Position numbers and translations under genes: made by a program
In this document: piece after piece, positions 5,231 through 36,315 of the stretch
How positions within the stretch are numbered: the first letter of the stretch is position 1
Layout of the letters: each line of letters opens with the position of its first letter
Notes under the pieces: generated by a model
What the model saw: the letters and a program-made list of their open reading frames with translations, nothing else
The model's database searches: none
Told to the model about the DNA's origin: nothing
Source: Nitrospinota bacterium
Lineage (GTDB): Bacteria; UBA8248
Assembly: GCA_036231405.1 (NCBI GenBank)
Contig: JAZAHK010000018.1
Location: 1 to 38,625 of the forward strand
Length of the DNA stretch: 38,625 nt
Direction: 5' to 3'

Positions 5231-7279
5231 ATGAACAGACCGATTTTATCAAATAGAAGAAACATCGGTATTATTTCGCATATTGATGCAGGTAAAACCA
5301 CTACAACCGAACGTATGTTGTATTGCGCTGGCGCGGTTCACAGAATAGGACAAGTTGATGAAGGAACGGCCACAACTGACTGGATGGTGCAAGAGAAAGA
5401 GCGTGGAATCTCTATTACTTCTGCTGCAATTTCATGTTTATGGTCTGGTTACGAAATAAATATAATCGATACACCTGGTCACGTAGATTTTACAGTGGAA
5501 GTTGAAAGAAGTCTGCGCGTACTTGACGGTGCTATTGCTATTTTTAGTTGTGTGGAAGGTGTCGAGGCTCAGAGTGAAACAGTGTGGGGACAAGCAGACA
5601 AATTTAAAGTTCCTCGAATCGTATATGTGAATAAAATTGATAGGCTTGGAGCTGATTTCTTGAGGACCTTTGAAATGATAAAGTCGAGTTTTCCGAAAAA
5701 ATTTATTTTAATGCAGTGGCCAGATGGGGAAGGAGAAGAATTTCAAGGTCAAATAGATATTCTAAATGGGAAGATATTCCGGTGGGATGAAGAAGACATT
5801 CAAAATGTCACATTAGATCCGATTCAAGAAAGATTTGAAGATAAAGTAAGCGAACTAAGAAATGAGATAATTGAAGTTGCATCAGACTATGATGAGATTA
5901 TCTTAGAAAATTATCTTGAAGGTAAACACGTTGAAAATGAATCGATAGAAAGAGCAATCAAAAAAGGAGTGATATCAAATGAAGTAGTTCCTGTTTTTGT
6001 TGGATCTTCTCTGAAGAGTTTGGGGATTCAACCTCTTTTGGATGGAATTGTAAAGTTTCTTCCATCACCTGAAGAAATTCCTCCGGTTTTAGGTATCATT
6101 CCAGAAGAAGAACTGTCAGAGGTAGTTCGTATTTGTTCTGTGGATGAACCTTTCTCCGCACTAGTTTTTAAGGTTGCTATGCATGAAGGTCGTCGCCTTA
6201 GTTTTATTCGTGTATATAGTGGCCGTGCAAAAGTTGGTGACTCAGTTTGGAATCCGACCCGAAAAAAAGAGGAGAAATTCTCCCGAATTTTTAGAATGTA
6301 CTCAAATAAACGTGAGAGAGTGGAGGAAATTGGACCTGGTGATATCGTCGCTGTTTTAGGTTTAAAAGATACACTTACGGGAGATACACTCTGTGATTCA
6401 GGTGCTCTGATTTCATTTGAATCTATCACTCCTCCTCAACCTGTAATCTCGATAGCGGTCGAACCCAAAGAAACTATTGATCTTGAAAAACTTCATCAGT
6501 CTCTTAAAAAATTAATGCTTGAAGACCCGACTTTCATCGTTGAATTGGGAAATGAATCTGGTCAGATCATTATGAGCGGTATGGGAGAATTGCATTTAGA
6601 CGTTTTAACGAAGAGATTGACTGATGAATTTGGACTTCAAATACGAGTAGGTGAACCGAGAGTGGTTTTCAGGGAAACTATTTGTGAAGTTGCTGAGGAT
6701 GAATGTTTATATGACAAGATGATTGGAGGAAAAGCACAATATGCGAAAATCCATTTGAGAGTGTCACCTATTCCAGGGGAAGGAATCCAAATCGTTTTCA
6801 AAAATAAAGTTCCCACAATTCCAGAAGATATTATTCTTGCAACTGAAGAATCCATAAAATCTTCATGTTCAGGTGGCATAGTTGCAGGGTATCCATTAAT
6901 TGATCTGAAAATTGAAATTCTTGAAATGGAATATATGCCTGAAAAGAGCAGTGATTTTGCTTTTTCTGCGGCAGGGTCTCTTGCTTTTAATAATGCTTGT
7001 AACAAGGCTAGAGGACAACTTCTTGAGCCAATCATGAAAGTTGAAGTTTCAACTTTGGAAGAACACGTTGGGGGAGTCATTAGTGAATTAAATATAAGAA
7101 ATGGGAATGTTTCAAACGTGAGAGATAAATTGGGTGAAGAAAATTATAAAATCATCGATGTAACCGTTCCCTTAAGGAAAATGTTTGGATTCACAACAGT
7201 TCTTCGTTCCTTAACGCAGGGGCGGGGAACATTCACTATGTCCTTTTTTAACTTCTCTCCTTGCGATATAAGACCATAG
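5231..7279 (+). CDS. fusA: Elongation factor G paralog (stand-alone, EF-G2-like)
   Basis: HIDAGKTTTTE, RGISITSAA, DTPGHVDF, NKID, SGMGELHL, LLEPIM, LRSLTQGRG; not in an rpsL-rpsG-tuf operon. Confidence 0.92.
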   Translation: MNRPILSNRRNIGIISHIDAGKTTTTERMLYCAGAVHRIGQVDEGTATTDWMVQEKERGISITSAAISCLWSGYEINIIDTPGHVDFTVEVERSLRVLDGAIAIFSCVEGVEAQSETVWGQADKFKVPRIVYVNKIDRLGADFLRTFEMIKSSFPKKFILMQWPDGEGEEFQGQIDILNGKIFRWDEEDIQNVTLDPIQERFEDKVSELRNEIIEVASDYDEIILENYLEGKHVENESIERAIKKGVISNEVVPVFVGSSLKSLGIQPLLDGIVKFLPSPEEIPPVLGIIPEEELSEVVRICSVDEPFSALVFKVAMHEGRRLSFIRVYSGRAKVGDSVWNPTRKKEEKFSRIFRMYSNKRERVEEIGPGDIVAVLGLKDTLTGDTLCDSGALISFESITPPQPVISIAVEPKETIDLEKLHQSLKKLMLEDPTFIVELGNESGQIIMSGMGELHLDVLTKRLTDEFGLQIRVGEPRVVFRETICEVAEDECLYDKMIGGKAQYAKIHLRVSPIPGEGIQIVFKNKVPTIPEDIILATEESIKSSCSGGIVAGYPLIDLKIEILEMEYMPEKSSDFAFSAAGSLAFNNACNKARGQLLEPIMKVEVSTLEEHVGGVISELNIRNGNVSNVRDKLGEENYKIIDVTVPLRKMFGFTTVLRSLTQGRGTFTMSFFNFSPCDIRP

Positions 7280-9252: not shown

Positions 9253-10692
9253 ATGGTTGCGAAGAGGATCAAAAGACGTAACGTTTTAAAAGCGGGTGTG
9301 GGTGCCGTTGTTGGTTCTAGTTTGCTCGGTAAAGCACGAACAGTTTCGGCTGGCCCAGAAGAAGATAAAATTATTAGTATTGCAAAAAGGCTTCAACCTG
9401 CTGCAATGAACGGAATGATGTGGTCTTTATATTGGAGAAATTATCCAAAACTGAACAAAGAATATAAAAAAGCAACAGGAAGCAATATGGCAAAAGTGAA
9501 CGATGTTCCGAACTTGCTTATTCCTCAGCGTGCAATGGCGGAGGCTATAAGCCGTTCTGGAAAATTTGACGTTTTCCATGTTGAATCCATGATGATTCCT
9601 TCACTCGTTGCTGCGGGTCTTGCGGAGCCACTTGATGATTATATGAAGCAAGCGAACTTCGATTTAAAAATGGTGGGAAACTTTGAAAAGTTTATGCAAT
9701 ACAAAGGGGTTACCTATGCGATGCCAACAGACGGGAATGTCTGTCCCCAGCTGATAAGAAAAGATTATTTTGACGATCCTGATGAAAGGAAGGCATTTGC
9801 AGATAAGCATGGCAAGCCTCTTAAATGGCCTGTAACTTTTGAAGATGAACTTGAAGTTGCTAAATTTTTTCATCGACCTGAAAAAGAGTTGTATGGTTTT
9901 GGTGGGTTGAGAGATAAGGCAAATAGTAGCTTTTGGTACTGGCAGTACCTTTATGCTGCAGGTGGATTTCCTATTAGCGATGACGCAGAACCACAGCTGA
10001 CAACTCCTGCGGCACATTATGCGATGGATACTTTCCTAGCGCTTAAACAGGTTTCTCATCCTGAAGCTTCTGCTTGGGGTTCTCCTCAAATGATTCCAAG
10101 GTTGGTTGGCGGAAAAATTTTCTCCTGTCAGTACTGGGACGGAATTATTGCAAAGATTGAAGGTTCTAAATCCCCAACTCGTGGAAAATTCCGCTATGGT
10201 CTAGTTCCAGGTTCTAGATTTTCTGGAAAACTGATTCATAGGGCTTTCTCAGCTCCTGTTATGGGAATGGTAGTCAACAGGTATAGTCCTAGAAAAAGAC
10301 AGGCTGCGTATTGGGCTCTATATATGAGTACTTTGAAAAATAGTACAAGTGTTGTGGGTCATCCAACTATGACTTTCCATGATCCTTGGCATCCTGGACA
10401 TATGAATGCTGCAAGTACGGTTAAGGTTTATACAAAAGAGGGAATGAAAGCAGTACATGACTGTCTAAAAGTAACAACACCTCCTCCTTATTTAACTGGT
10501 TATCACGAGTTTAAAGAGGCGGTCGATAAGAATCTATCTGAAGCATACAATGGACAAAAGTCTGGCAAGCAGGCTTTACAGGATATGCAGTCTCGCTGGA
10601 CTAAAATCATACGGAAAATAGGGAAACGTAGAATTAAAAAAGAGATTCCTTATTACAAAGGAATGATGCCTAAGGTGAATGTTCCATCATAG
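9253..10692 (+). CDS. ABC transporter extracellular solute-binding protein (CUT1/SBP_bac_1-like) with Tat signal
   Basis: KRRNVLK twin-arginine signal; AGLAEPLDDY and YAMPTDG SBP motifs; GGAGG RBS; first gene of an ABC operon. Confidence 0.85.
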   Translation: MVAKRIKRRNVLKAGVGAVVGSSLLGKARTVSAGPEEDKIISIAKRLQPAAMNGMMWSLYWRNYPKLNKEYKKATGSNMAKVNDVPNLLIPQRAMAEAISRSGKFDVFHVESMMIPSLVAAGLAEPLDDYMKQANFDLKMVGNFEKFMQYKGVTYAMPTDGNVCPQLIRKDYFDDPDERKAFADKHGKPLKWPVTFEDELEVAKFFHRPEKELYGFGGLRDKANSSFWYWQYLYAAGGFPISDDAEPQLTTPAAHYAMDTFLALKQVSHPEASAWGSPQMIPRLVGGKIFSCQYWDGIIAKIEGSKSPTRGKFRYGLVPGSRFSGKLIHRAFSAPVMGMVVNRYSPRKRQAAYWALYMSTLKNSTSVVGHPTMTFHDPWHPGHMNAASTVKVYTKEGMKAVHDCLKVTTPPPYLTGYHEFKEAVDKNLSEAYNGQKSGKQALQDMQSRWTKIIRKIGKRRIKKEIPYYKGMMPKVNVPS

Positions 10693-10735
10693 GTTAGAAT
10701 GTTGATTCTTTGTTGATTTTTCCTTTTGTTCATCT

Positions 10736-10762
10736 AGGGTGTTTGGTGTATCCAAACACCCT
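10736..10762 (+). other. Intercistronic stem-loop (11-bp perfect inverted repeat) after the SBP gene
   Basis: AGGGTGTTTGG-tgtat-CCAAACACCCT, with no downstream U-tract. Confidence 0.75.
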
Positions 10763-10789
10763 TAGAGCAAGTAATATAAAGAAATCAAA

Positions 10790-11755
10790 ATGGCACAGTC
10801 CGCTTCGACACAAACTCAAAGCTTGGGAAATCTTTCCAGTCGATCCTCAGGAATAAGATTTTTTAAGTGGACACTCTTGAGTCCCATGATATGCCTTGCT
10901 CTTTTTTTGCTACCTGTTTTTATCCTCCAGTTGTATTTCGCGTTTCATTCTTGGACGATTTATCTTTCAAGTTGGTGGGATGCAGAATACGTAGGAATTG
11001 AACTTTTTCAGGAAGCACTTCAAGACAAACGTTTTTTTTGGGCCGTTGCCAGATCCATGCTTTTTGCAAGCTTGTCGACGATTGGATGTTTCGTTTTTGG
11101 TTTAATTCTTGCGCTACTAATGTATAGACCTTTTCGTGGACATAGTTTTTTCTACATTGTTTTCATTTTACCTATGCTTACAGTTCCTATAGTCATAGCC
11201 TATACCTGCGACATGCTTCTTTACAGGGCTGGTCCGATTAATGGATTTTTGAGTGCGATATTTGGAACAGAGATGCGATTTACCTGGCTTTCTAATCCTG
11301 ATTTTGCAATTTTTACAGTAATCATGCTTGAAATTTGGAATTGGACTCCTTTTACATTTATTATTCTAATTGCTGGCTTGTCTTCGATACCGAAGGAACC
11401 CATTGAAGCGGCTCGTATACTGGGTGCGAATCGCCTTAAAATTTTTCTCGAGATTCAATTGCCTCTTTTAAGACCAGTTATTTTTTTGGCGTTGATCCTG
11501 AGGTTTCTTGAGGCAATGGCTGAGTTTCCAAAAACATGGGGTCTTCTTCAGGGAGGACCAGGTTCTGCCACTGAGACGATTCCAATTTATCTATATCTGA
11601 TTACTTGGCAGTTTTTTGATATTTCTAAAGCTGCAGCAACTTCATATATTGTTATGGTGATTATGATAATTGTCGTTCTACTCGCTATTAGAGTTTTAAG
11701 AAAAGAGAAACAATCAATGGATACTCTTTATTCGGTTCGTTCTTCGAGGAATTGA
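10790..11755 (+). CDS. Carbohydrate-type ABC transporter permease (MalF-like)
   Basis: EAA loop EAARILGA; WNWTPF; TM segments. Confidence 0.9.
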   Translation: MAQSASTQTQSLGNLSSRSSGIRFFKWTLLSPMICLALFLLPVFILQLYFAFHSWTIYLSSWWDAEYVGIELFQEALQDKRFFWAVARSMLFASLSTIGCFVFGLILALLMYRPFRGHSFFYIVFILPMLTVPIVIAYTCDMLLYRAGPINGFLSAIFGTEMRFTWLSNPDFAIFTVIMLEIWNWTPFTFIILIAGLSSIPKEPIEAARILGANRLKIFLEIQLPLLRPVIFLALILRFLEAMAEFPKTWGLLQGGPGSATETIPIYLYLITWQFFDISKAAATSYIVMVIMIIVVLLAIRVLRKEKQSMDTLYSVRSSRN

Positions 11756-11761
11756 TGTTTT

Positions 11762-12673
11762 ATGGCTTATTATCTTAAACGTTGGAGATTTCCATTTTTT
11801 CGGTATTTGGTGTTAGGAATTTGGACTCTTATTGCTGGGTTTCCAATTTTCTGGATAGCAGCCACATCGTTTAAGCCCGCTCACCAATGGACGTCTTGGC
11901 CTGTAGTTTACGTTTCGAATGAGCCTACTATGGAAAATTACCGTGAAGTTTGGGGGATAAGGGAAAAAACAGTGGAGGAAGCATCGCAGACCTATGAGAA
12001 AGGTAAGGATGCGAGACCTGAATCAGTTTCTATGAATAAGGCATGGAAAGCTTTTGGGAACAGTCTTTTGATAGCTTTAATTGCGACCTCTTTAACCGTT
12101 GCTTTTGGAACTGTCATTGCTTATGGTGTTTCTCGTTTCCAAATCCTTTCTGAAATAAGAATGTTCCAATTACTAATGTTAAGAATGATTCCACCGATAG
12201 TTGTTGCTGCACCGCTAACCTTGTATTACACAACCCTTAATTTAATGGATAGTGTGACAGGACTAGTATTAATTTATTTCATAACGACTCTTCCGTACGC
12301 AGTTTGGATGACTAAGAGTTTTATTGATGAAGTCCCCAGAGAAATAGAACAAGCAGCGGAGTTACTGGGTGCAACTAGATGGCGAACAATCGTAGAAGTT
12401 GTTTTTCCTCTGATTCGTTCGGGAATTGTAGCTACATTCATGTTTATTTTAATTCTAACTTGGAGTGAATATTTGATGTCTTTTATTCTCTCGAAAGTTG
12501 ATGTGGTTACTCTTCCTGTTCAATTGAGCAAGTATGAGGGTTCTACTGAGGGAAGAATGTATGGCACACAATCAGCTCTTGCTGTTGGTATTACGCTTCC
12601 TCTAATGTTAATCGGAATTTTTATTCGAAAACATCTTGTTAGAGGGTTTACTTTTGGAATGGTGAAGAGGTAA
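11762..12673 (+). CDS. Carbohydrate-type ABC transporter permease (MalG-like)
   Basis: TSFKP, NSLLIA, EIEQAAELLGA, WSEY, HLVRGFTFGMVK. Confidence 0.9.
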   Translation: MAYYLKRWRFPFFRYLVLGIWTLIAGFPIFWIAATSFKPAHQWTSWPVVYVSNEPTMENYREVWGIREKTVEEASQTYEKGKDARPESVSMNKAWKAFGNSLLIALIATSLTVAFGTVIAYGVSRFQILSEIRMFQLLMLRMIPPIVVAAPLTLYYTTLNLMDSVTGLVLIYFITTLPYAVWMTKSFIDEVPREIEQAAELLGATRWRTIVEVVFPLIRSGIVATFMFILILTWSEYLMSFILSKVDVVTLPVQLSKYEGSTEGRMYGTQSALAVGITLPLMLIGIFIRKHLVRGFTFGMVKR

Positions 12674-12677
12674 TCAA

Positions 12678-13754
12678 ATGTCTCAGATTGAATTAAAAAA
12701 ATTACGTAAAGTGTTCGGAGAAAATATTGAAGCAGTTAAGGATTTAGATTTAGTGATTGAAGAAGGCGAATTTGTAGTACTGGTTGGTCCTTCTGGTTGC
12801 GGCAAGACCACTACTTTAAGAATGATTGCGGGTTTTGAAGAACCTACTTCTGGGGAAGTAGTTATAGACGGTGAGATGGTAAATGATCGTGACCCTAAGG
12901 ATAGAAATTTAGGAATGGTTTTTCAAAGCCATGCTTTGTTTCCACACAAAACCGTTTACCAGAATATAGAGTTTGGGCCTCGAATGAAAAAAATTCCTTT
13001 AGAAGACAGAAAAAAACGCGTGGAGGAAGTAGCTGAAATGGTTCATATTACGCCATTGCTTAACAAATTGCCGTCGCAATGTTCAGGAGGAGAAGCACAA
13101 AGGGCCGCACTTGCTAGGACCCTAATTACTAATCCTGGGTCTTTTCTCTTAGATGAACCTCTTTCTAGTTTAGATGCTAAACTTCGAAGAGAAATGAGAG
13201 CTGAAATTGATCGACTACATCAGGAACTTAAAAAAACATTTGTTTATGTGACACATGATCAAGAAGAAGCCATGACTCTTGCGGATCGAATTGTCGTTAT
13301 GCGTGCGGGAGAGATCGAACAAGAGGGAATCCCGATGGAAATTTATAACGATCCAAGTAGTTATTTTGTTGCAGATTTTTTTGGGAGTCCATCAATGAAT
13401 TTACTTGATGGTAATATTCGCAAGGGTTCTTCCGGTGAATCCTTCGTTTTTGAGGGATACGGATTATCCTTAGATTTACCACGATTGGATAATTTAGTAG
13501 AGGGAGAACATTGCGTTGGAATAAGACCAGAAAGTATTTCCGTTGGTGATAGTGATAATGGCTTAGAACTATCTGTTAGTTTGGTAGAACCTATGGGAAA
13601 AGATACTCTTTTGTATTTTTCTCATTCTGCTGAGCGCCCTTTGATTGCAGTTGTTGAAGGTTCAACGAAAATCCAATCTGGTGATCTCGTAGTTGTTCAA
13701 TTTCCCAAGGATAGTATCTATGTATTCGACTCGGATGGGATTAGAGTAAAATAG
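12678..13754 (+). CDS. ABC transporter ATP-binding protein (MalK/UgpC-like with TOBE domain)
   Basis: Walker A GPSGCGKTT, signature CSGGEAQR, LLDEPLS, YVTHDQEEAM, GIRPE. Confidence 0.93.
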   Translation: MSQIELKKLRKVFGENIEAVKDLDLVIEEGEFVVLVGPSGCGKTTTLRMIAGFEEPTSGEVVIDGEMVNDRDPKDRNLGMVFQSHALFPHKTVYQNIEFGPRMKKIPLEDRKKRVEEVAEMVHITPLLNKLPSQCSGGEAQRAALARTLITNPGSFLLDEPLSSLDAKLRREMRAEIDRLHQELKKTFVYVTHDQEEAMTLADRIVVMRAGEIEQEGIPMEIYNDPSSYFVADFFGSPSMNLLDGNIRKGSSGESFVFEGYGLSLDLPRLDNLVEGEHCVGIRPESISVGDSDNGLELSVSLVEPMGKDTLLYFSHSAERPLIAVVEGSTKIQSGDLVVVQFPKDSIYVFDSDGIRVK

Positions 13755-13880: not shown

Positions 13881-14756
13881 ATGTCTAAAAAAATTGCATA
13901 TCTTGGGTTAGGAACTATGGGAAGGGCCATGGCTCGTAATTTAGTGGAGGCTGGTTATATAGTTAGAGGATATGATCCAGATTCGAATGCAAGAGAAAAT
14001 GCAAATAGTTTTGGGGTGGAAGTTTTCTTAAGTGCTGCGGAAGCAGCGAGTGATGTAGATGTGATTTGCAGTTCTGTTCCTAGGACAGAACATGTGAAGG
14101 AAACTTATCTCTCAGATAATGGGGCCTTATCGACTGCATCGAGTGGAACTGTTTGTTTTGATTTTTCAACTATTTCGCCAGAGGGTAGTTGTGAAGTCGC
14201 CGAAGGAGCTAAAAAAAATGGAGTTATTTTTCTTGACACCCCAGTAGGTGGGAGTGAACCACAAGCAATTACTGGAGATTTACATGTTATGGTCGGAGGG
14301 GATAAAATCGCATTTGAAAAGCATAGAGATATTTTGGAAACGCTTGGAAAAACTGTGCATTATTTTGGGGATAATGGTACTGCTTTAAAGATGAAACTTG
14401 TTGCGAATCAAATATTTTCTATTTTCATGTGTGCCATTTCCGAAGGACTAGTACTTGGGATGAAATCCGGTTTAGATCCAGTAGAGATGATTGACTATTT
14501 TAAGACAAGTTCTCATCCAAGGGTTTTTGACTTAAAGGGAGATGCCCTTGCAAAGAAGGATTATACTCCTACATTTAAAGTTGACCTTATGAAAAAGGAT
14601 TTAGGTTTAGTGGCTGAGATGGCATCTTATGCGAACATGCCTACCAATTTTGCAGCTCTTGCATGGCAAGTTTTTAAGTCAACATCAGCACTTGGTTTTG
14701 GGGATCAAGATCAAGCAGCAATAAGAGAGTTTTTCGAAAAAAGCTCAGGAAACTAA
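13881..14756 (+). CDS. Beta-hydroxyacid dehydrogenase (3-hydroxyisobutyrate/tartronate semialdehyde reductase family)
   Basis: GLGTMG, DFSTISP, FLDTPVGGS, MVGG, catalytic MKLVAN, LMKKDL. Confidence 0.88.
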   Translation: MSKKIAYLGLGTMGRAMARNLVEAGYIVRGYDPDSNARENANSFGVEVFLSAAEAASDVDVICSSVPRTEHVKETYLSDNGALSTASSGTVCFDFSTISPEGSCEVAEGAKKNGVIFLDTPVGGSEPQAITGDLHVMVGGDKIAFEKHRDILETLGKTVHYFGDNGTALKMKLVANQIFSIFMCAISEGLVLGMKSGLDPVEMIDYFKTSSHPRVFDLKGDALAKKDYTPTFKVDLMKKDLGLVAEMASYANMPTNFAALAWQVFKSTSALGFGDQDQAAIREFFEKSSGN

Positions 14757-14762
14757 TTGAGA

Positions 14763-15296
14763 TTAGGTAAGTAATTCAAGGATTCTTGGTGTTATTTCTA
14801 TCGCACGTTCTCTCAATTGTTCTTCATTTAAACTGCCTACAGGATGAGGAATATACGCTATAGGGTAATTATCTATTCCTCTTATTTTTGCGACCACTTC
14901 CGCAGTTTTTCTGAATGGTTCCGTACATATGACCGCAGTCGGTATTCCTAGTTTTTCTAGTTCGATTCCGTCGTGCACACTGCACGATGAGCAAGAACCT
15001 CAATCGCCCACTGCAGTGATTACAAAGTCACATTTTTTTGCCATTTCTTCATACATTTCTTCTTCAGCGGGACGTGTGTCGTATTCCTTTTTAAGTTCTA
15101 TTGTTTCATGTGGTGTGATTCCCTTTTTTTGTAGTTCTTGAAGTATAAAATGCATTAACTTCTCACCACCTATTTTCGAATTCCAAAGAAGACCACATTT
15201 TTTTTGATTTAGGTCGGATACTCTTTTTGCGAGTTTCCCCTCTTCGGTATTCATTTCTACAGTTGGATCAAAAATAGGAATTCTATTCTCAGTCAT
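14763..15296 (-). CDS. UGSC-family selenoprotein, 177 aa, Sec at codon 99 (UGA at 15000-15002)
   Basis: The two track ORFs (15000-15296 and 14763-14978) share a frame and are separated by a single TGA. Read-through gives DFVITAVGD-U-GSCSSCSVHDGIELEKLGIP. A SECIS-like hairpin follows the TGA, and only the first ATG has an RBS (AGGAG). Confidence 0.9.
14964..14999 (-). promoter_or_regulatory. Candidate bacterial SECIS element
   Basis: mRNA after UGA: GGUUCU-UGCUCA-UCGUGCA-GUG-UGCACGA-C-GGAAUC. It has a perfect 7-bp upper stem, a G-containing apical loop about 20 nt from UGA, and a lower stem GGUUCU/GGAAUC. Confidence 0.75.
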
Positions 15297-15305
15297 TTTT
15301 TTCTC

Positions 15306-16349
15306 CTAGGACGTCTGGGAAAATCGAATTTCTGGAGAAAAAATCTTTTTGGTTACTGTTACTCCATTTCTTCTTCTACTCCAAGAGGGAACCCAAGAGG
15401 AGTGACCTCCCGCTTCCCCCCCTGCTACCACAATAAAAATGTCGTTTGGACTTAACGCATGGCGCACATTGCCATCCTGATCAGCCCATCCTGCACTATC
15501 AATCTTTCCAGTTTCTCTCAGTTTTTTTTCTGGAATTGTTGCATGTTTATAAATATATTCTTTGATCTCCTGTTTAGTTTTATATTCCTTGCTTATTATT
15601 TTTGCGTGTTCAGGAGAAAAAACAAAAAAACTTTGCCCTTCACTCATACTTCCGAGAGATGACATTGTGTTACATGAGGTATCGAGAATTCCTTTTGCTA
15701 GTCCGTAGTGGTTCTGAATATTGTGCGGACCTTCTGTTGCTAGAAGAGTGACCGTACTTTCTTCTTTCTCAAAACCCAATTCGACACTGAGTGATTCCCA
15801 TGGGCTTAATTCTTCATTTTCACCGAAAGTTAAACTATATTTTCCAGGGTTCCCCTGCGTAGACCGATCCATAAGTCCGGGTTTAGCACCTAGGCAGTTA
15901 ATTAATACCAATCTTATGGCTCTTCCAATGGATGCGTTAGCTCTAGACCCAGGTCCGTAAAAGTTTGTTCCTGAATTTAATGAGATTTCTGGACGAACTG
16001 GTCCATTTACGACCATAAGTGGAGCCGCACCACCCGTACTAGATGCACTCGCATGAACGTTATAATCCGGATCTGCCATGGCTTCTAGTGCAGAGATTAA
16101 GACCGGCATATAAACTGGTAGGCATCCTGCAAGAATTGCATTAATTGCAATTTTTTCTGCTTCTACACTTCTTTTTCTTTCAGGTACTTCAAAAATTATT
16201 TGACCTTCTCGTATTCCTCCCGAATCTAGAAAGGTTCGTATCATCTCTTTCGTAGGAGGAATGATAGGCAGACCATCTGTCCACCCTTTTTTATGGTAAA
16301 AATCGACAGTTTCAAAAAAACTTTCTTTATATTCAATTGGTTCTATCAT
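15306..16349 (-). CDS. Uncharacterised UGSC-associated protein (GWTDGLP family)
   Basis: GWTDGLPIIPPT, IAINAILAGC, VNGP, RANASIGRA, QGNPGKY, ENEELSPW and VAGGEAG motifs; its stop overlaps the RBS of the selenoprotein. Confidence 0.8.
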   Translation of the reverse strand: MIEPIEYKESFFETVDFYHKKGWTDGLPIIPPTKEMIRTFLDSGGIREGQIIFEVPERKRSVEAEKIAINAILAGCLPVYMPVLISALEAMADPDYNVHASASSTGGAAPLMVVNGPVRPEISLNSGTNFYGPGSRANASIGRAIRLVLINCLGAKPGLMDRSTQGNPGKYSLTFGENEELSPWESLSVELGFEKEESTVTLLATEGPHNIQNHYGLAKGILDTSCNTMSSLGSMSEGQSFFVFSPEHAKIISKEYKTKQEIKEYIYKHATIPEKKLRETGKIDSAGWADQDGNVRHALSPNDIFIVVAGGEAGGHSSWVPSWSRRRNGVTVTKKIFSPEIRFSQTS

Positions 16350-22587: not shown

Positions 22588-22599
22588 TTGTTTATAATT

Positions 22600-22684
22600 T
22601 TCGCTAGGGGTGTTTCTTCTGAGAGCCTAGATATTGGCAACCCTTAGAACCTGATCTGGATAATTCCAGCGAAGGGAAGCGGCA
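22600..22684 (+). ncRNA. TPP riboswitch (THI element)
   Basis: CGCTAGGGG...CTGAGAG...ACCCTTAGAACCTGATCTGGATAATTCCAGCGAAGGGAAGCG matches TPP aptamer core motifs; upstream of thiS. Confidence 0.93.
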
Positions 22685-22702
22685 TGTAGTTAGTCTTATT
22701 TT

Positions 22703-22972: not shown

Positions 22973-23746
22973 ATGAGCGCTTATGAAATATCAGGAAGGT
23001 CTTTTGCTTCGCGTTTGTGGGTTGGTTCCGGCAAATATCCCAATTTTAGTACGATGAAAGATGCTCTTGGTGCTAGTGGGGCAGAAATTGTAACAGTTGC
23101 GGTTAGACGTGTTGATTTAAATGACGACAGTAAGGAAGGTTTTTGGGCTTTCTTTGATAGAGATAAATATACAATTCTTCCAAATACAGCAGGTTGTTTT
23201 GATGTTAAAAGTGCTGTCACAACTGCTCGACTTGGGAGAGAAGCTACAGGTTCGGATATGGTAAAGGTTGAAGTGATTGGGGATGAATCTACACTTTTCC
23301 CAGATAATGAAGGTCTTTTAGAAGCTTGCAAAATACTCCTGCAAGATGGTTTTATAGTTCTTCCTTATTGTATAGACGATCCTGTGATCTGCCAGAAGCT
23401 TGAGGATTTAGGTTGTCATGCAGTTATGCCTCTTGCTGCCCCCATAGGTTCTGGTTTAGGCATACGCAATCCATATAATTTAAAAATTATTCTTCAGAAA
23501 ATATCAATCCCTGTTATTGTGGATGCTGGAGTTGGAACCGCGTCAGATGCTGCTATTGCAATGGAACTTGGTTCAACTGCCGTTTTAATGCAGACTGCAA
23601 TAGCAGGAGCAGACGATCCTGTGAAAATGGCTTTAGCGATGAAAAAAGGAATTGAAGCTGGTAGACTTGCTTTTGAAGCAGGGAGAATCCCAACAAAACT
23701 TTTTGCTGAAGCCTCTAGTCCCCTCGAAGGGGTAATAGGGTCTTAA
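22973..23746 (+). CDS. thiG: Thiazole synthase
   Basis: [53 protein letters not shown]. Confidence 0.96.
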
Positions 23747-23767: not shown

Positions 23768-24382
23768 ATAGAACGCCTGTTATTGATTACCGATAGACTA
23801 ATAAAACGAGAGTATGATCTTTTTGCTTCGTTAGATGCGGCTTTTTCAGGCGGAGTTCGTTTTCTCCAGTTCAGAGAAAAAGATTTGCCAGCTAATGAGA
23901 GATTTTTGCTCGGAAAAGAAGTTAAAGAACTTTCGGATTTATACAAGGTTAAGTTTATAGTTAATGGAGATCCCTCTCTTGCGCTTGCGCTTGGTGCTGA
24001 TGGGGTTCATCTAGGACGTAATACGCTCCCAATTCGAGTTGTAAGAGGTAAGTTGAAGTTTAAAGGTATTATCGGTTATTCTGCGCACAGTGTTGAAGAA
24101 GTTAGAGATGCATTTAACTCAGGCGCAGATTATGTAACTTTAAGTCCCATTTTTGAAAGCATAAGTAAGACGACGTCCGTACCGAGTTTAGGTCTTGAAA
24201 TTTTCAAGAATGAAGTTTCTTATATTTCTGGTCCTGTATATGCATTGGGCGGAATATCTCCTGTAAATGCCCTCGGTTGTATAAATGCAGGTGCCTATGG
24301 TGTTGCAGTAGTTGGAGCTATACTTGGAACGGATGATCCAAGTTGTTCTGCAAAGGAAATTTTAAATATTATCTCTTGTTGA
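23768..24382 (+). CDS. thiE: Thiamine phosphate synthase (ThiE/TenI family); start uncertain (ATA 23768 or TTG 23783)
   Basis: LLITDR, QFREKD, GADGVHLG, GYSAHS, DYVTLSPIF, ALGGI; lies in the thi operon. Confidence 0.82.
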   Translation: MERLLLITDRLIKREYDLFASLDAAFSGGVRFLQFREKDLPANERFLLGKEVKELSDLYKVKFIVNGDPSLALALGADGVHLGRNTLPIRVVRGKLKFKGIIGYSAHSVEEVRDAFNSGADYVTLSPIFESISKTTSVPSLGLEIFKNEVSYISGPVYALGGISPVNALGCINAGAYGVAVVGAILGTDDPSCSAKEILNIISC

Positions 24383-35715: not shown

Positions 35716-36315
35716 TTATTTGAATGGCAGTATTCTGGAGATGTCTTTTAAAGGTTCTTCAAATCTCCATACTTGCCTTTGAAAAGATTCTTCAGAACAT
35801 TTCGAAATTAAGATTTTTCTAGCCATGTGGCGAGTAGGTAGTCTTTTCCCTCCTCTCGTAAGGTAAGATTTTTCTTTTCCAATCGTTAAACAACTGTCAG
35901 GAAATTCTTTTAATCGCACATGGTAATTATTATAACTCCATAATTGTAGTTTTGAATTATCACATTTGTGCAAGAAAATTTTTGAACCCTCTGATTCGCT
36001 TTCAGCTTTCACACAAAGATTATATTCTATCATTCTCAATTTTCCTTTGGAAATTGACATGAAATCGAATAGTTCGTCTTTATTCCAAATCCCCTCTTTG
36101 CAAGTATGAACAACAAGTGCTGCATTCAATTTCACACGTTCCTTATGGCCAGGAATATCTACACAATGGAATCTTGGTTCGTCTAGTGCATAAAATGCTT
36201 TTAAGAAAACTTTCTTGTTTCGGATTGTTTCAGATAGTGAGAATTTAATGGAAGTCTCAAACAGAGAAAGTAAGACGGTGAAGAAAATGAAGGAAAGAAA
36301 CATTGATTTTTTCAT
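35716..36315 (-). CDS. Secreted ricin B-type (beta-trefoil) lectin-like protein
   Basis: Signal peptide; CVDIPG...HTCK, LCV...KCDNSKLQLW, CLT...KC...QVW repeats (QxW). Confidence 0.7.
   Translation of the reverse strand: MKKSMFLSFIFFTVLLSLFETSIKFSLSETIRNKKVFLKAFYALDEPRFHCVDIPGHKERVKLNAALVVHTCKEGIWNKDELFDFMSISKGKLRMIEYNLCVKAESESEGSKIFLHKCDNSKLQLWSYNNYHVRLKEFPDSCLTIGKEKSYLTRGGKRLPTRHMARKILISKCSEESFQRQVWRFEEPLKDISRILPFK

What the first reader, a model, noticed from the sequence alone, without database searches (positions are those of the whole stretch)
14763..15296. Hidden selenoprotein: two track ORFs are one UGA-recoded gene (U-G-S-C-S-S-C)
Seen: the 98-aa ORF ends in TGA (15000-15002), and the same frame continues GSCSSCSVHDGIELEKLGIP... 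to TAA at 14763, giving 177 aa. The downstream 'ORF' has no RBS of its own. Known: UGSC-motif proteins are a (seleno)protein family with Cys-containing homologs and no established function. Inference: this organism encodes Sec machinery, and standard annotation would split or pseudogenise this gene.
Basis: partly seen in the sequence, partly recalled or inferred. Interest (0 to 1): 0.85.

Follow-up and report, generated by a model that had tools for sequence, protein, structure and literature searches.

The report
Known UGSC selenoprotein gene, confirmed
The two short reading frames are one gene for a selenocysteine-containing protein of the already described UGSC family, and it sits next to, and probably works with, a widespread enzyme-like protein that nobody has characterised.

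Summary
Window 15296..14763 (- strand) is one frame of 177 codons, interrupted only by TGA at 15002-15000. Read through, it matches the full Pfam UGSC model (PF24696, 1.7e-52) and passes NCBIfam's curated cut-off for "UGSC family (seleno)protein" (NF041046). Full-length homologues have Cys at codon 99. All 80 of the 80 best genomic relatives keep an in-frame TGA there. A 17-nt hairpin 12 nt downstream meets the published bacterial SECIS criteria, and its synonymous sites are frozen across phyla. TGA ends 6 of 38 other window ORFs, so this is local recoding.

The family has been in print since 2007-2008 without a function, so this is an ordinary member.

Three points go beyond the finding:
- The model is a flavodoxin-like (beta-alpha)5 domain, not a thioredoxin fold, and is remotely homologous to the Sec region of GrdB/PrdB.
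- It forms a conserved gene pair, often a fusion, with the upstream 347-aa protein. That protein has no Pfam family and no PDB fold match.
- In other organisms that partner carries peroxiredoxin-like or thioredoxin-reductase-type modules.

Sec machinery could not be checked in this genome.

The parts
14763..15296 (-). Complete UGSC-family selenoprotein gene: 177 codons plus a TAA stop
   Evidence: One frame with a single TGA. Matches PF24696 at 1.7e-52 over its full length. Scores 148.9 bits against NF041046, cut-off 125.
15000..15002 (-). Sec-UGA, codon 99, first residue of the U-G-S-C-S-S-C motif
   Evidence: Cys aligns here in 5 full-length homologues. TGA is present in 80 of 80 related loci. 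TGA is an ordinary stop for 6 of 38 other window ORFs.
14971..14987 (-). Bacterial SECIS hairpin: 7-bp stem (14987-14981 paired with 14977-14971) and GUG loop (14980-14978). It starts 12 nt after the UGA, and the loop is 19 nt after it.
   Evidence: Folds at -9 kcal/mol. 99.2% of 511 cells are paired across 73 distinct sequences, and 2 of 7 pairs show compensatory changes. Third-codon positions are frozen. It meets the four bSECIS criteria quoted in PMC13188914.
14991..14993 (-). Cys102 codon, the C of the U-x-x-C redox motif
   Evidence: Invariant in the 28-sequence alignment A4, which includes Cys forms.
14982..14984 (-). Cys105 codon, the third position of U-x-x-C-x-x-C, lying inside the SECIS stem
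   Evidence: Cys in 73 of 73 distinct Sec forms. It is A, S or W in the Cys forms.
15303..15307 (-). Shine-Dalgarno AGGAG of the UGSC gene, overlapping the TAG stop of the upstream gene
   Evidence: Read directly from the sequence.
15306..16349 (-). Upstream partner gene: 347 aa, an uncharacterised enzyme-like family with a near-universal Cys76
   Evidence: No Pfam or NCBIfam family. 4890 homologues and 6672 representative clusters. Adjacent to the UGSC gene in most related loci. Fused to UGSC in many proteins. Confident model with no PDB fold match.

Best explanation
Window 15296..14763 (-) is a single gene for a UGSC-family selenoprotein.

Decoding. UGA99 is read as selenocysteine because a 17-nt hairpin lies 12 nt downstream inside the coding sequence. 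This hairpin has the features of a bacterial SECIS, the element that recruits SelB with Sec-tRNA(Sec). The match to the SECIS criteria is shown; the recruitment is inferred from established knowledge of bacterial Sec insertion.

The protein. The model is a flavodoxin-like (beta-alpha)5 domain. Sec99 sits between strand 3 and the start of helix 3, followed by Cys102 and Cys105 (U-x-x-C-x-x-C). The domain is a remote homologue of the Sec-bearing C-terminal region of the GrdB/GrdF/GrdH/PrdB reductase subunits.

Function (inferred, about 0.5-0.6). It is the selenol/thiol redox module of a two-protein enzyme. The catalytic part would be the 347-aa protein encoded immediately upstream and translationally coupled to it. 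Sec99/Cys102 would cycle between selenol-thiol and selenenylsulfide, and so reduce or resolve the partner's near-universal Cys76.

What is shown:
- the gene's integrity;
- family membership;
- conservation of the TGA;
- RNA-level constraint on the hairpin;
- the gene pairing and the fusions.

What is inferred:
- actual Sec insertion in this organism;
- physical contact of the two proteins;
- the direction of electron flow;
- the substrate, which remains unknown.
For: Gene and family
- One frame with one TGA.
- PF24696 at 1.7e-52 over residues 8-177.
- NF041046 at 148.9 bits, above the curated cut-off of 125.

Cys/Sec pair
- 5 of 6 full-length homologues have C at position 99, with conservation on both sides.

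Conservation
- Of 415 genomic relatives the best 80 were kept, and 80 of 80 have an in-frame TGA.
- After the TGA, 27-29 codons differ only synonymously and 9-10 nonsynonymously against L001-L003.

SECIS
- 7-bp stem, 3-nt loop beginning with G then U, 19 nt from the UGA, -9 kcal/mol. This meets the criteria quoted in PMC13188914.
- 99.2% of 511 cells are paired. Two pairs carry G-C to A-U or C-G to U-A double changes. 0 of 500 shuffles reach these values.
- Third-position entropy is 0-0.46 bits for codons 104-109. It is 1.1-1.8 bits for the neighbouring invariant or near-invariant Gly/Ser/Pro codons.

Code
- TGA ends 6 of 38 other ORFs.

Fold
- pLDDT 90, strict beta-alpha alternation, U99 at the strand-3/helix-3 junction.
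- PDB hits are flavodoxin-like domains.

GrdB link
- 26 of 28 family members hit TIGR01917, best E 1.2e-6. 20 hit TIGR01918, 18 GrdF, 11 GrdH and 7 PrdB.
- GrdB is reported to carry UxxCxxC (PMC13188914 passage).

Partner
- The partner gene is upstream on the same strand in 68 of 80 loci.
- It is the only neighbour family found in more than 20 of the 80 loci.
- Of 41 long partner-family proteins scanned, 24 carry a UGSC domain or a piece cut exactly at the TGA. 5 carry an AhpC/TSA-Redoxin domain instead, 1 a pyridine-nucleotide-disulphide oxidoreductase and 2 a ferredoxin-thioredoxin-reductase catalytic domain.
- Partner Cys76 is conserved in 153 of 158 aligned domains.

Lineage
- MAGs labelled Nitrospinota/Nitrospinaceae and Dehalococcoidia are among the most selenoprotein-rich bacteria listed in BSepDB (PMC13326102 passage).
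Against: - No selA, selB, selC or selD and no tRNA are in the window. The rest of the genome was not available.
- There is no expression or protein evidence.
- In this one sequence the hairpin is not exceptional thermodynamically. The z-score is -0.42 for 76 nt and -1.95 for 23 nt, with 12 of 200 shuffles folding as well.
- Covariation rests on only 3 cells, because the hairpin hardly varies.
- The partner link is not universal. Of the 77 loci with enough upstream DNA, 2 have no partner within 6 kb, 6 have it on the opposite strand 2-3.5 kb away and 1 has it downstream.
- 3 of the 12 full-length fusions have lost the Cys motif.
- The partner has no recognisable family or fold, so its chemistry is unknown.
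- The GrdB similarity is far below family cut-offs: 25.1 bits against 602.2.
Confidence: 0.9

Rival explanations
1. UGSC is itself the catalytic selenoprotein, as PrdB/GrdB are thought to be. On this view Sec99 attacks a substrate carbon or heteroatom that is activated on the 347-aa partner, and Cys102/Cys105 resolve the selenoether or selenenyl intermediate. The partner would be the substrate-binding and activating subunit rather than the redox target.
For: - Consistent remote homology to the Sec region of GrdB/GrdF/GrdH/PrdB: 26 of 28 members hit TIGR01917.
- The same U-x-x-C-x-x-C pattern is reported for GrdB (PMC13188914 passage).
- Cys105 is present in 73 of 73 distinct Sec forms.
- The two genes are tightly coupled.
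Against: - In other organisms the UGSC domain is replaced on the same partner by generic AhpC/TSA-Redoxin domains with CxxC or CxxS (5 of 41). That fits a thiol-disulphide exchange role better than a specialised carbon chemistry.
- No GrdE/PrdA-type or GrdA-type gene is in the window.
- The partner shows no similarity to PF09338-type subunits at E up to 10.
- Cys105 is absent from all Cys forms seen. Its codon lies in the SECIS stem, so it may be there for the RNA.
Confidence: 0.25
2. UGSC is a free-standing thioredoxin-like thiol oxidoreductase with many clients, and its position next to the 347-aa gene has no functional meaning.
For: [quoted passage not shown] 2 of 77 loci lack the partner within 6 kb.
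Against: - The model is (beta-alpha)5 and its PDB matches are flavodoxin-like, not a thioredoxin fold.
- 68 of 80 loci keep the partner directly upstream, across Nitrospinaceae, Dehalococcoidia and Acidobacteriota.
- No other neighbour family occurs in more than 20 of the 80 loci.
- Natural fusions exist in both orders.
Confidence: 0.08
3. The TGA is a nonsense mutation, so the gene is a pseudogene or yields a truncated 98-aa protein. Alternatively, the organism reads TGA as a standard amino acid (code 4 or 25).
For: No Sec machinery was seen in the window. One database copy carries W at this position (P0010).
Against: - TGA is conserved in 80 of 80 loci from several phyla.
- The post-TGA codons are under purifying selection.
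- A conserved SECIS hairpin is present.
- Homologues have Cys at this position, not Trp or Gly.
- TGA terminates 6 of 38 other ORFs in the window, including ORFs whose Pfam matches run to the profile's end.
Confidence: 0.02

Closest known systems
UGSC family (seleno)protein (Pfam PF24696; NCBIfam NF041046; 'UGSC-containing protein' of Zhang and Gladyshev, e.g. the Hyphomonas neptunium protein cited in PMC1976440)
   Same: Full-length HMM matches above the curated cut-offs, the U/C-G-S-C motif at the same position, Cys-containing homologues, Sec forms predominating, aquatic or marine lineages, and no known function.
   Different: Nothing essential; this is a member. The literature passages I read call the fold 'Trx-like', whereas the model here is flavodoxin-like. 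The 2008 paper mentions a fusion to an 'Unknown_1' domain. This is probably the partner described here, but I could not verify it because its Figure S1 is a PDF that I could not read.
Selenoprotein B subunits of glycine/sarcosine/betaine reductases and D-proline reductase (GrdB, GrdF, GrdH, PrdB; TIGR01917, TIGR01918, TIGR04483)
   Same: Remote but consistent sequence similarity over UGSC residues about 77-167 to profile positions about 325-414 of 431. Sec is followed by Cys at +3 and +6, the UxxCxxC reported for GrdB. Each works with a second, separately encoded subunit.
   Different: Scores are far below family cut-offs: 25.1 against 602.2 bits and 19.3 against 65.45. UGSC lacks the roughly 250-300 N-terminal residues of GrdB. 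No grdA, grdE or prdA-type genes are nearby. The partner is an unrelated family. The carriers are marine Nitrospinaceae, SAR202/Dehalococcoidia and Acidobacteriota MAGs. Classical Grd/Prd systems, from my own recollection, belong to amino-acid-fermenting clostridia.
Enzymes regenerated by a dedicated thioredoxin-fold domain or protein (peroxiredoxin/AhpF-type and methionine-sulfoxide-reductase-type fusions)
   Same: A catalytic protein with one conserved Cys is linked, by operon or fusion, to a small C/U-x-x-C redox domain. In some lineages it is further linked to thioredoxin-reductase-type modules.
   Different: Neither component belongs to those families. The redox domain is flavodoxin-like, and the catalytic protein has no known fold. 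This is an analogy of working principle, not membership.

Membership tests
UGSC family (PF24696 / NF041046) | Match to the family HMMs above their curated cut-offs over the full length | tested here: met
   PF24696 scores 178.5 bits (cut-off 25), residues 8-177 on profile 2-171 of 172. NF041046 scores 148.9 bits (cut-off 125).
UGSC family (PF24696 / NF041046) | U or C followed by G-S-C at the conserved position, after a beta strand ending in G-D | tested here: met
   G97, D98, U/C99, G100, S101 and C102 are invariant in 28 sequences. The motif is present in 80 of 80 loci.
Bacterial selenoprotein gene | In-frame UGA aligned with Cys in homologues, with conservation on both sides | tested here: met
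Bacterial selenoprotein gene | bSECIS as quoted in PMC13188914: apical loop of 3-9 nt, upper stem of 4-16 bp, G in the first two loop positions, 16-37 nt from the UGA, MFE at or below -7.5 kcal/mol | tested here: met
   3-nt loop GUG, 7-bp stem, 19 nt spacing, -9 kcal/mol. Conserved with compensatory changes.
Bacterial selenoprotein gene | selA, selB, selC (tRNA-Sec) and selD present in the genome | not testable with these tools
   None are in the 38.6-kb window. The only indirect support is the BSepDB listing of selenoprotein-rich MAGs with similar labels.
Bacterial selenoprotein gene | Selenium actually incorporated (75Se labelling or MS) | not testable with these tools
   This needs an experiment.
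GrdB/PrdB selenoprotein B family (TIGR01917/TIGR01918/TIGR04483) | Match above the family cut-off | tested here: not met
   TIGR01917 scores 25.1 bits against 602.2. TIGR01918 scores 19.3 against 65.45. Remote homology only, seen in 26 of 28 members.
GrdB/PrdB selenoprotein B family (TIGR01917/TIGR01918/TIGR04483) | U-x-x-C(-x-x-C) at the Sec site | tested here: met
   U99-G-S-C102-S-S-C105. The GrdB motif is as quoted in PMC13188914. Exact column-by-column alignment of the two Sec residues was not shown, because I held no GrdB sequence.
GrdB/PrdB selenoprotein B family (TIGR01917/TIGR01918/TIGR04483) | Genomic association with the pyruvoyl subunit (GrdE/PrdA) and GrdA or PrdC genes | tested here: not met
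   No such Pfam families occur among the 39 window ORFs scanned.
Thioredoxin-fold oxidoreductases | Thioredoxin fold (mixed sheet, beta-alpha-beta-alpha-beta-beta-alpha) | tested here: not met
   The model has five beta-alpha units. Its best PDB matches are flavodoxin-like domains, TMq 0.33-0.53. This rests on a prediction with pLDDT 90.

The most novel reading that the evidence does not exclude
The UGSC gene and the 347-aa gene upstream form a widespread, undescribed two-component (seleno)enzyme.

- The catalytic subunit would have a fold with no counterpart in the PDB, one near-universal Cys and several conserved Arg, Glu, Asn and His residues.
- It would be serviced by an excised GrdB/PrdB-like Sec domain.
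- In other lineages that domain is swapped for a peroxiredoxin-like CxxC/CxxS domain.
- In some lineages the system is wired to ferredoxin-thioredoxin-reductase-type or thioredoxin-reductase-type modules.

If so, one of the most abundant marine selenoprotein families finally gets a partner, and with it a route to its substrate.
Probability: 0.45. Interest if true: 0.6.

Novelty: already known. Interest (0 to 1): 0.3.

Why it matters
The gene itself is a routine member of a family that has been catalogued since 2007-2008 and has curated Pfam and NCBIfam models. Its main practical lesson concerns annotation. Gene callers that ignore Sec store it as a 98-aa stump, as 11 of the 17 database relatives found here are stored.

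What may be useful beyond that is the context. UGSC proteins are among the most abundant aquatic selenoproteins, and the 2026 review passage I read still treats their biological functions as largely uncharacterised. Three things here give a concrete, testable hypothesis, a dedicated Sec redox module for a new enzyme, where the literature I read offers only 'probably redox':
- the conserved operon and fusions with one uncharacterised 347-aa family;
- the replacement of UGSC by redoxin domains on that same family;
- the remote kinship to the GrdB/PrdB Sec domain.

Tried and rejected
- Search for longer, fused relatives of the UGSC protein by word index found none. This was later explained: fusions exist but are distant, and were found from the partner side.
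- PDB by sequence found no relative of UGSC, with the single sequence or with the profile (best E 0.18, chance level).
- PDB by fold for the partner gave nothing credible. The best hit has E 6.6e-3 and TM 0.13-0.27 (class I fumarate hydratases, cyclic amide hydrolases), which I regard as noise.
- Pfam at E up to 10, NCBIfam and two ESM Atlas searches for the partner gave no named family other than the fusion cluster.
- Other TGA-interrupted genes in the window: none. The only other long 'read-through' (10790-12673) is two adjacent permease genes that happen to be in frame.
- Sec variants of the partner's Cys76: none. The codon is TGC or TGT in all 71 motif matches in the loci.
- tRNA-Sec and other RNA families: only a TPP riboswitch was found.
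- Conserved third genes around the pair: none beyond clade-level synteny, at most 20 of 80 loci.

Not checked:
- The metagenome and viral contig collections, which were closed.
- AlphaFold DB, which was not on hand.
- Figure S1 of PMC2398784, a PDF supplement. It may already show the partner as 'Unknown_1'.
- Whether the GrdB kinship or the redoxin, FTR and TrxR fusions are in print. My two literature searches and the passages read do not mention them, but that is not proof of absence.
Full report
**1. The observation**

On the minus strand an ATG at 15296 opens a frame that meets TGA at 15002-15000 after 98 codons. The frame continues without another stop to TAA at 14765-14763.

- With TGA read as U the product is 177 residues, and U99 begins the string U-G-S-C-S-S-C.
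- The start codon is preceded by AGGAG at 15307-15303, which overlaps the TAG stop of the upstream gene.
- The only table-11 ORF after the TGA starts at a GTG (14978). That GTG is simply the Val107 codon, and no Shine-Dalgarno precedes it.

**2. Is the read-through real?**

- *Family match.* The 177-aa product matches the Pfam UGSC model from end to end (PF24696, E 1.7e-52, residues 8-177 on profile positions 2-171 of 172). It also exceeds NCBIfam's curated cut-off for 'UGSC family (seleno)protein' (NF041046, 148.9 bits against 125).
- *Database relatives.* A search of 5.8 billion proteins gave 17 relatives among 63 candidates.
  - 11 are stumps of 98-113 aa that cover only the part before the TGA. 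This shows how such genes are usually mis-called.
  - 6 are full length (176-200 aa). In the alignment, 5 of these have Cys at position 99 and one has W, most likely a TGA translated under another code. Invariant residues lie on both sides of the position.
- *Genomic relatives.* A scan of one genome per species found 415 relatives, of which the best 80 were kept. All 80 of 80 carry an in-frame TGA at this codon.
  - Three of them are MAGs labelled Nitrospinaceae, at 82% identity. The window (36% G+C) therefore probably comes from that group.
  - The rest are labelled Dehalococcoidia/SAR202/Chloroflexota and Acidobacteria/Acidobacteriota.
- *Selection after the TGA.* Against the three Nitrospinaceae relatives, the 78 codons after the TGA show 27-29 synonymous-only differences and 9-10 nonsynonymous ones. 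That part is kept as protein.
- *TGA as a stop.* TGA ends 6 of 38 other ORFs of the window, including ORFs whose Pfam matches reach the end of the profile. TGA is therefore a normal stop here, and codon 99 is a local exception.

**3. The recoding signal**

Twelve nucleotides after the UGA lies a 17-nt hairpin at 14987-14971. It has a 7-bp stem and a GUG loop, and folds at -9 kcal/mol.

- *Published criteria.* The bacterial SECIS model quoted in PMC13188914 (Fig. 2 legend, passage read) asks for four things, and all four are met:
  - a 3-9-nt apical loop on a 4-16-bp stem;
  - a G in the first two loop positions, usually followed by G or U;
  - 16-37 nt between the UGA and the loop (19 nt here);
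  - MFE at or below -7.5 kcal/mol.
- *Pairing across relatives.* Across 73 distinct sequences, 99.2% of 511 cells are paired. Two of the seven pairs show double changes: G-C to A-U in two sequences and C-G to U-A in one. 0 of 500 shuffles reach the observed values, and slid registers pair far less.
- *Frozen synonymous sites.* This is the stronger argument. Third-position entropy is 0-0.46 bits for codons 104-109. It is 1.1-1.8 bits for the invariant or near-invariant Gly, Ser and Pro codons on either side.
- *Honest limits.* In this single sequence the fold is not statistically remarkable: z -0.42 over 76 nt, and z -1.95 over 23 nt with 12 of 200 shuffles as good. Covariation rests on three cells because the element barely varies.
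It is A or S in the five free-standing Cys forms, and W or A in the fused Cys forms with an intact C-x-x-C motif. Its codon lies in the hairpin stem. Either the RNA imposes it, or it goes functionally with Sec as in the UxxCxxC reported for GrdB. I cannot tell which.

**4. What is missing**

- The window holds no tRNA, no tRNA-Sec or other Rfam family except a TPP riboswitch, and no SelA, SelB or SelD domains among 39 ORFs scanned. The EF-G-like ORF at 5231-7279 has the full EF-G domain set, not that of SelB.
Sec machinery in this organism therefore stays unverified.
- Indirect support comes from BSepDB, which lists MAGs labelled Nitrospinota/Nitrospinaceae (GTDB phylum UBA8248) with 48-54 selenoprotein genes and Dehalococcoidia with 46-49 (PMC13326102, passage read).

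**5. What the protein is**

- *Model.* The AlphaFold model built on 28 sequences is confident (pLDDT 90, pTM 0.84). It shows five successive beta-alpha units. U99 sits between strand 91-97 and helix 100-115, so U99, C102 and C105 follow one another at the start of a helix.
- *Fold.* The best PDB matches are flavodoxin-like domains: flavodiiron proteins, WrbA, ArsH, lumazine synthase and type II dehydroquinase (E from 8.5e-5, TMq 0.33-0.53). [quoted passage not shown] The model does not support that.
- *Solved relatives.* No solved structure is related by sequence.
- *Remote homology.* UGSC residues about 77-167 align to positions about 325-414 of 431 of the GrdB model (E 7.4e-6). This is consistent across the family: 26 of 28 members hit TIGR01917, 20 TIGR01918, 18 GrdF, 11 GrdH and 7 PrdB. 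The scores are far below family cut-offs, so this is kinship of a domain, not membership.

**6. The neighbour**

- *The gene.* Directly upstream, with its stop overlapping the UGSC ribosome-binding site, lies a 347-aa ORF (16349..15306). It has no Pfam or NCBIfam family.
- *Size of the family.* It is large and strongly conserved: 4890 homologues in the word-indexed search and 6672 representative clusters with a profile. 78 positions are invariant among 36 sequences that share 47-86% identity with the window protein.
- *Conserved residues.* One Cys, Cys76, is nearly universal (153 of 158 aligned domains). It is always encoded by TGC or TGT in the fetched loci.
- *Fold.* The model is confident (pLDDT 83.6, pTM 0.85) but finds nothing credible in the PDB (best E 6.6e-3, TM 0.13-0.27). 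Two ESM Atlas searches gave no named family apart from a fusion cluster.
- *Context in the 80 UGSC loci*:
  - 68 have the partner upstream on the same strand, 61 of them within 200 nt by alignment ends;
  - 1 has it downstream;
  - 6 have it on the opposite strand, 2-3.5 kb away;
  - 5 have no partner hit, 3 of which have too little upstream DNA.
- *Other neighbours.* No other neighbour family occurs in more than 20 of the 80 loci.

**7. Fusions**

I scanned 41 of the 150 listed representatives against Pfam, chosen because they are longer than the partner domain.

| Architecture | Count of 41 |
|---|---|
| Partner followed by the first half of UGSC, ending exactly at ...G-D, i.e. cut at the TGA | 4 |
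| Second half of UGSC followed by the partner, i.e. starting after the TGA | 8 |
| Complete UGSC domain plus the partner | 12 |
| AhpC/TSA-Redoxin domain with CxxC or CxxS in place of UGSC | 5 |
| Pyridine-nucleotide-disulphide oxidoreductase | 1 |
| Ferredoxin-thioredoxin-reductase catalytic domain (one of these also carries UGSC and is counted in the second row) | 2 |
| No extra domain recognised | 10 |

- Of the 12 complete UGSC fusions, 9 have Cys at position 99 and 3 have lost the motif.
- The 2008 paper reports a 'UGSC/Unknown_1' fusion. This is probably the same partner. Its Figure S1 is a PDF that I could not read, so this is not verified.

**8. How it most likely works**

*Shown:*
- a Sec-UGA with a conserved SECIS;
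- a small flavodoxin-like domain with U-x-x-C at a helix start;
- obligate-looking linkage to one enzyme-like family;
- interchangeability of UGSC with redoxin domains on that family;
- occasional addition of thioredoxin-reductase-type modules.

*Inferred (about 0.5-0.6):* UGSC is the dedicated selenol/thiol redox module of a two-protein enzyme. It cycles between selenol-thiol and selenenylsulfide, and so reduces or resolves the partner's Cys76.

*Main rival (about 0.25):* the PrdB-like reading. Here Sec itself attacks a substrate held by the partner.

*Rejected:*
- A free-standing general oxidoreductase is unlikely (about 0.08).
- A pseudogene or an alternative genetic code is effectively excluded (about 0.02).

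The substrate is unknown.

**9. Comparison and novelty**

- The gene is a member of the UGSC family in every tested respect.
- The family has been in print since 2007-2008. It is called a selenoprotein of unknown function in PMC1976440. In GOS it has 255 Sec and 21 Cys sequences, making it one of the major aquatic selenoprotein families (PMC2398784).
- The passages I read in the 2022 and 2026 reviews still list it, and the 2026 one says the functions of such selenoproteins remain largely uncharacterised.
- It is not a GrdB/PrdB member, and on the model it is not a thioredoxin-fold protein.
- The finding is therefore already known.
- My two literature searches and the passages read do not mention the partner family's ubiquity, its alternative redox fusions, the flavodoxin-like fold or the GrdB kinship. 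That is not proof that they are unpublished.

**10. Verdict**

The gene is an ordinary member of a known family, so interest is low to moderate (0.3). The best lead for further work is the two-gene module.

Noticed in passing
window 15306-16349 (-): A 347-aa ORF of a very large, strongly conserved family (6672 representative clusters). It has no Pfam or NCBIfam model, and its confident predicted structure has no credible PDB match. It has a near-universal Cys76 and many invariant Arg, Glu, His and Asn residues.
   Followed up: yes
window 22596-22694 (+): TPP riboswitch (RF00059, 67.7 bits). It lies upstream of thiG (22973-23746) and a thiamine-phosphate synthase gene (23783-24382).
   Followed up: no
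proteins P0204, P0222, P0259, P0262, P0285, P0224, P0241, P0253: Members of the partner family are fused to AhpC/TSA-Redoxin domains (CxxC or CxxS), to a pyridine-nucleotide-disulphide oxidoreductase, or to the ferredoxin-thioredoxin-reductase catalytic domain. These are alternative redox wirings of the same enzyme.
   Followed up: partly
proteins P0166, P0199, P0206: Three full-length UGSC-partner fusions have lost both the Sec/Cys position and Cys102. The UGSC domain may persist there in a non-redox, possibly structural, role.
   Followed up: no
protein P0010: A 176-aa database copy of a Sec-type UGSC protein carries W at the Sec position. Apparently a source translated TGA as Trp.
   Followed up: no
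proteins P0139, P0145, P0146, P0147, P0153, P0155: Proteins of about 710-740 aa with two or more matched stretches of the partner profile. They are probably tandem duplications of the partner domain. The three I scanned (P0139, P0145, P0146) show no extra Pfam domain.
   Followed up: partly
window 9253-13754 (+) and 13881-14756 (+): An ABC importer operon (solute-binding protein, two permeases, MalK-type ATPase), followed by a 3-hydroxyisobutyrate / 2-hydroxy-3-oxopropionate dehydrogenase-like gene. That gene converges on the UGSC gene, with 6 nt between the two stop codons. This arrangement is not conserved in the other loci.
   Followed up: partly
window 35716-36315 (-): A 199-aa ORF with a ricin-type beta-trefoil lectin domain (PF00652, 4.2e-11), lying among housekeeping genes.
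   Followed up: no
loci L001-L080, codons 104-109 of the UGSC genes: The SECIS hairpin is almost identical at the nucleotide level in MAGs labelled Nitrospinaceae, Dehalococcoidia/SAR202 and Acidobacteriota, although the proteins share only about 42-47% identity. This points to very strong constraint, or to lateral spread of the gene pair.
   Followed up: partly
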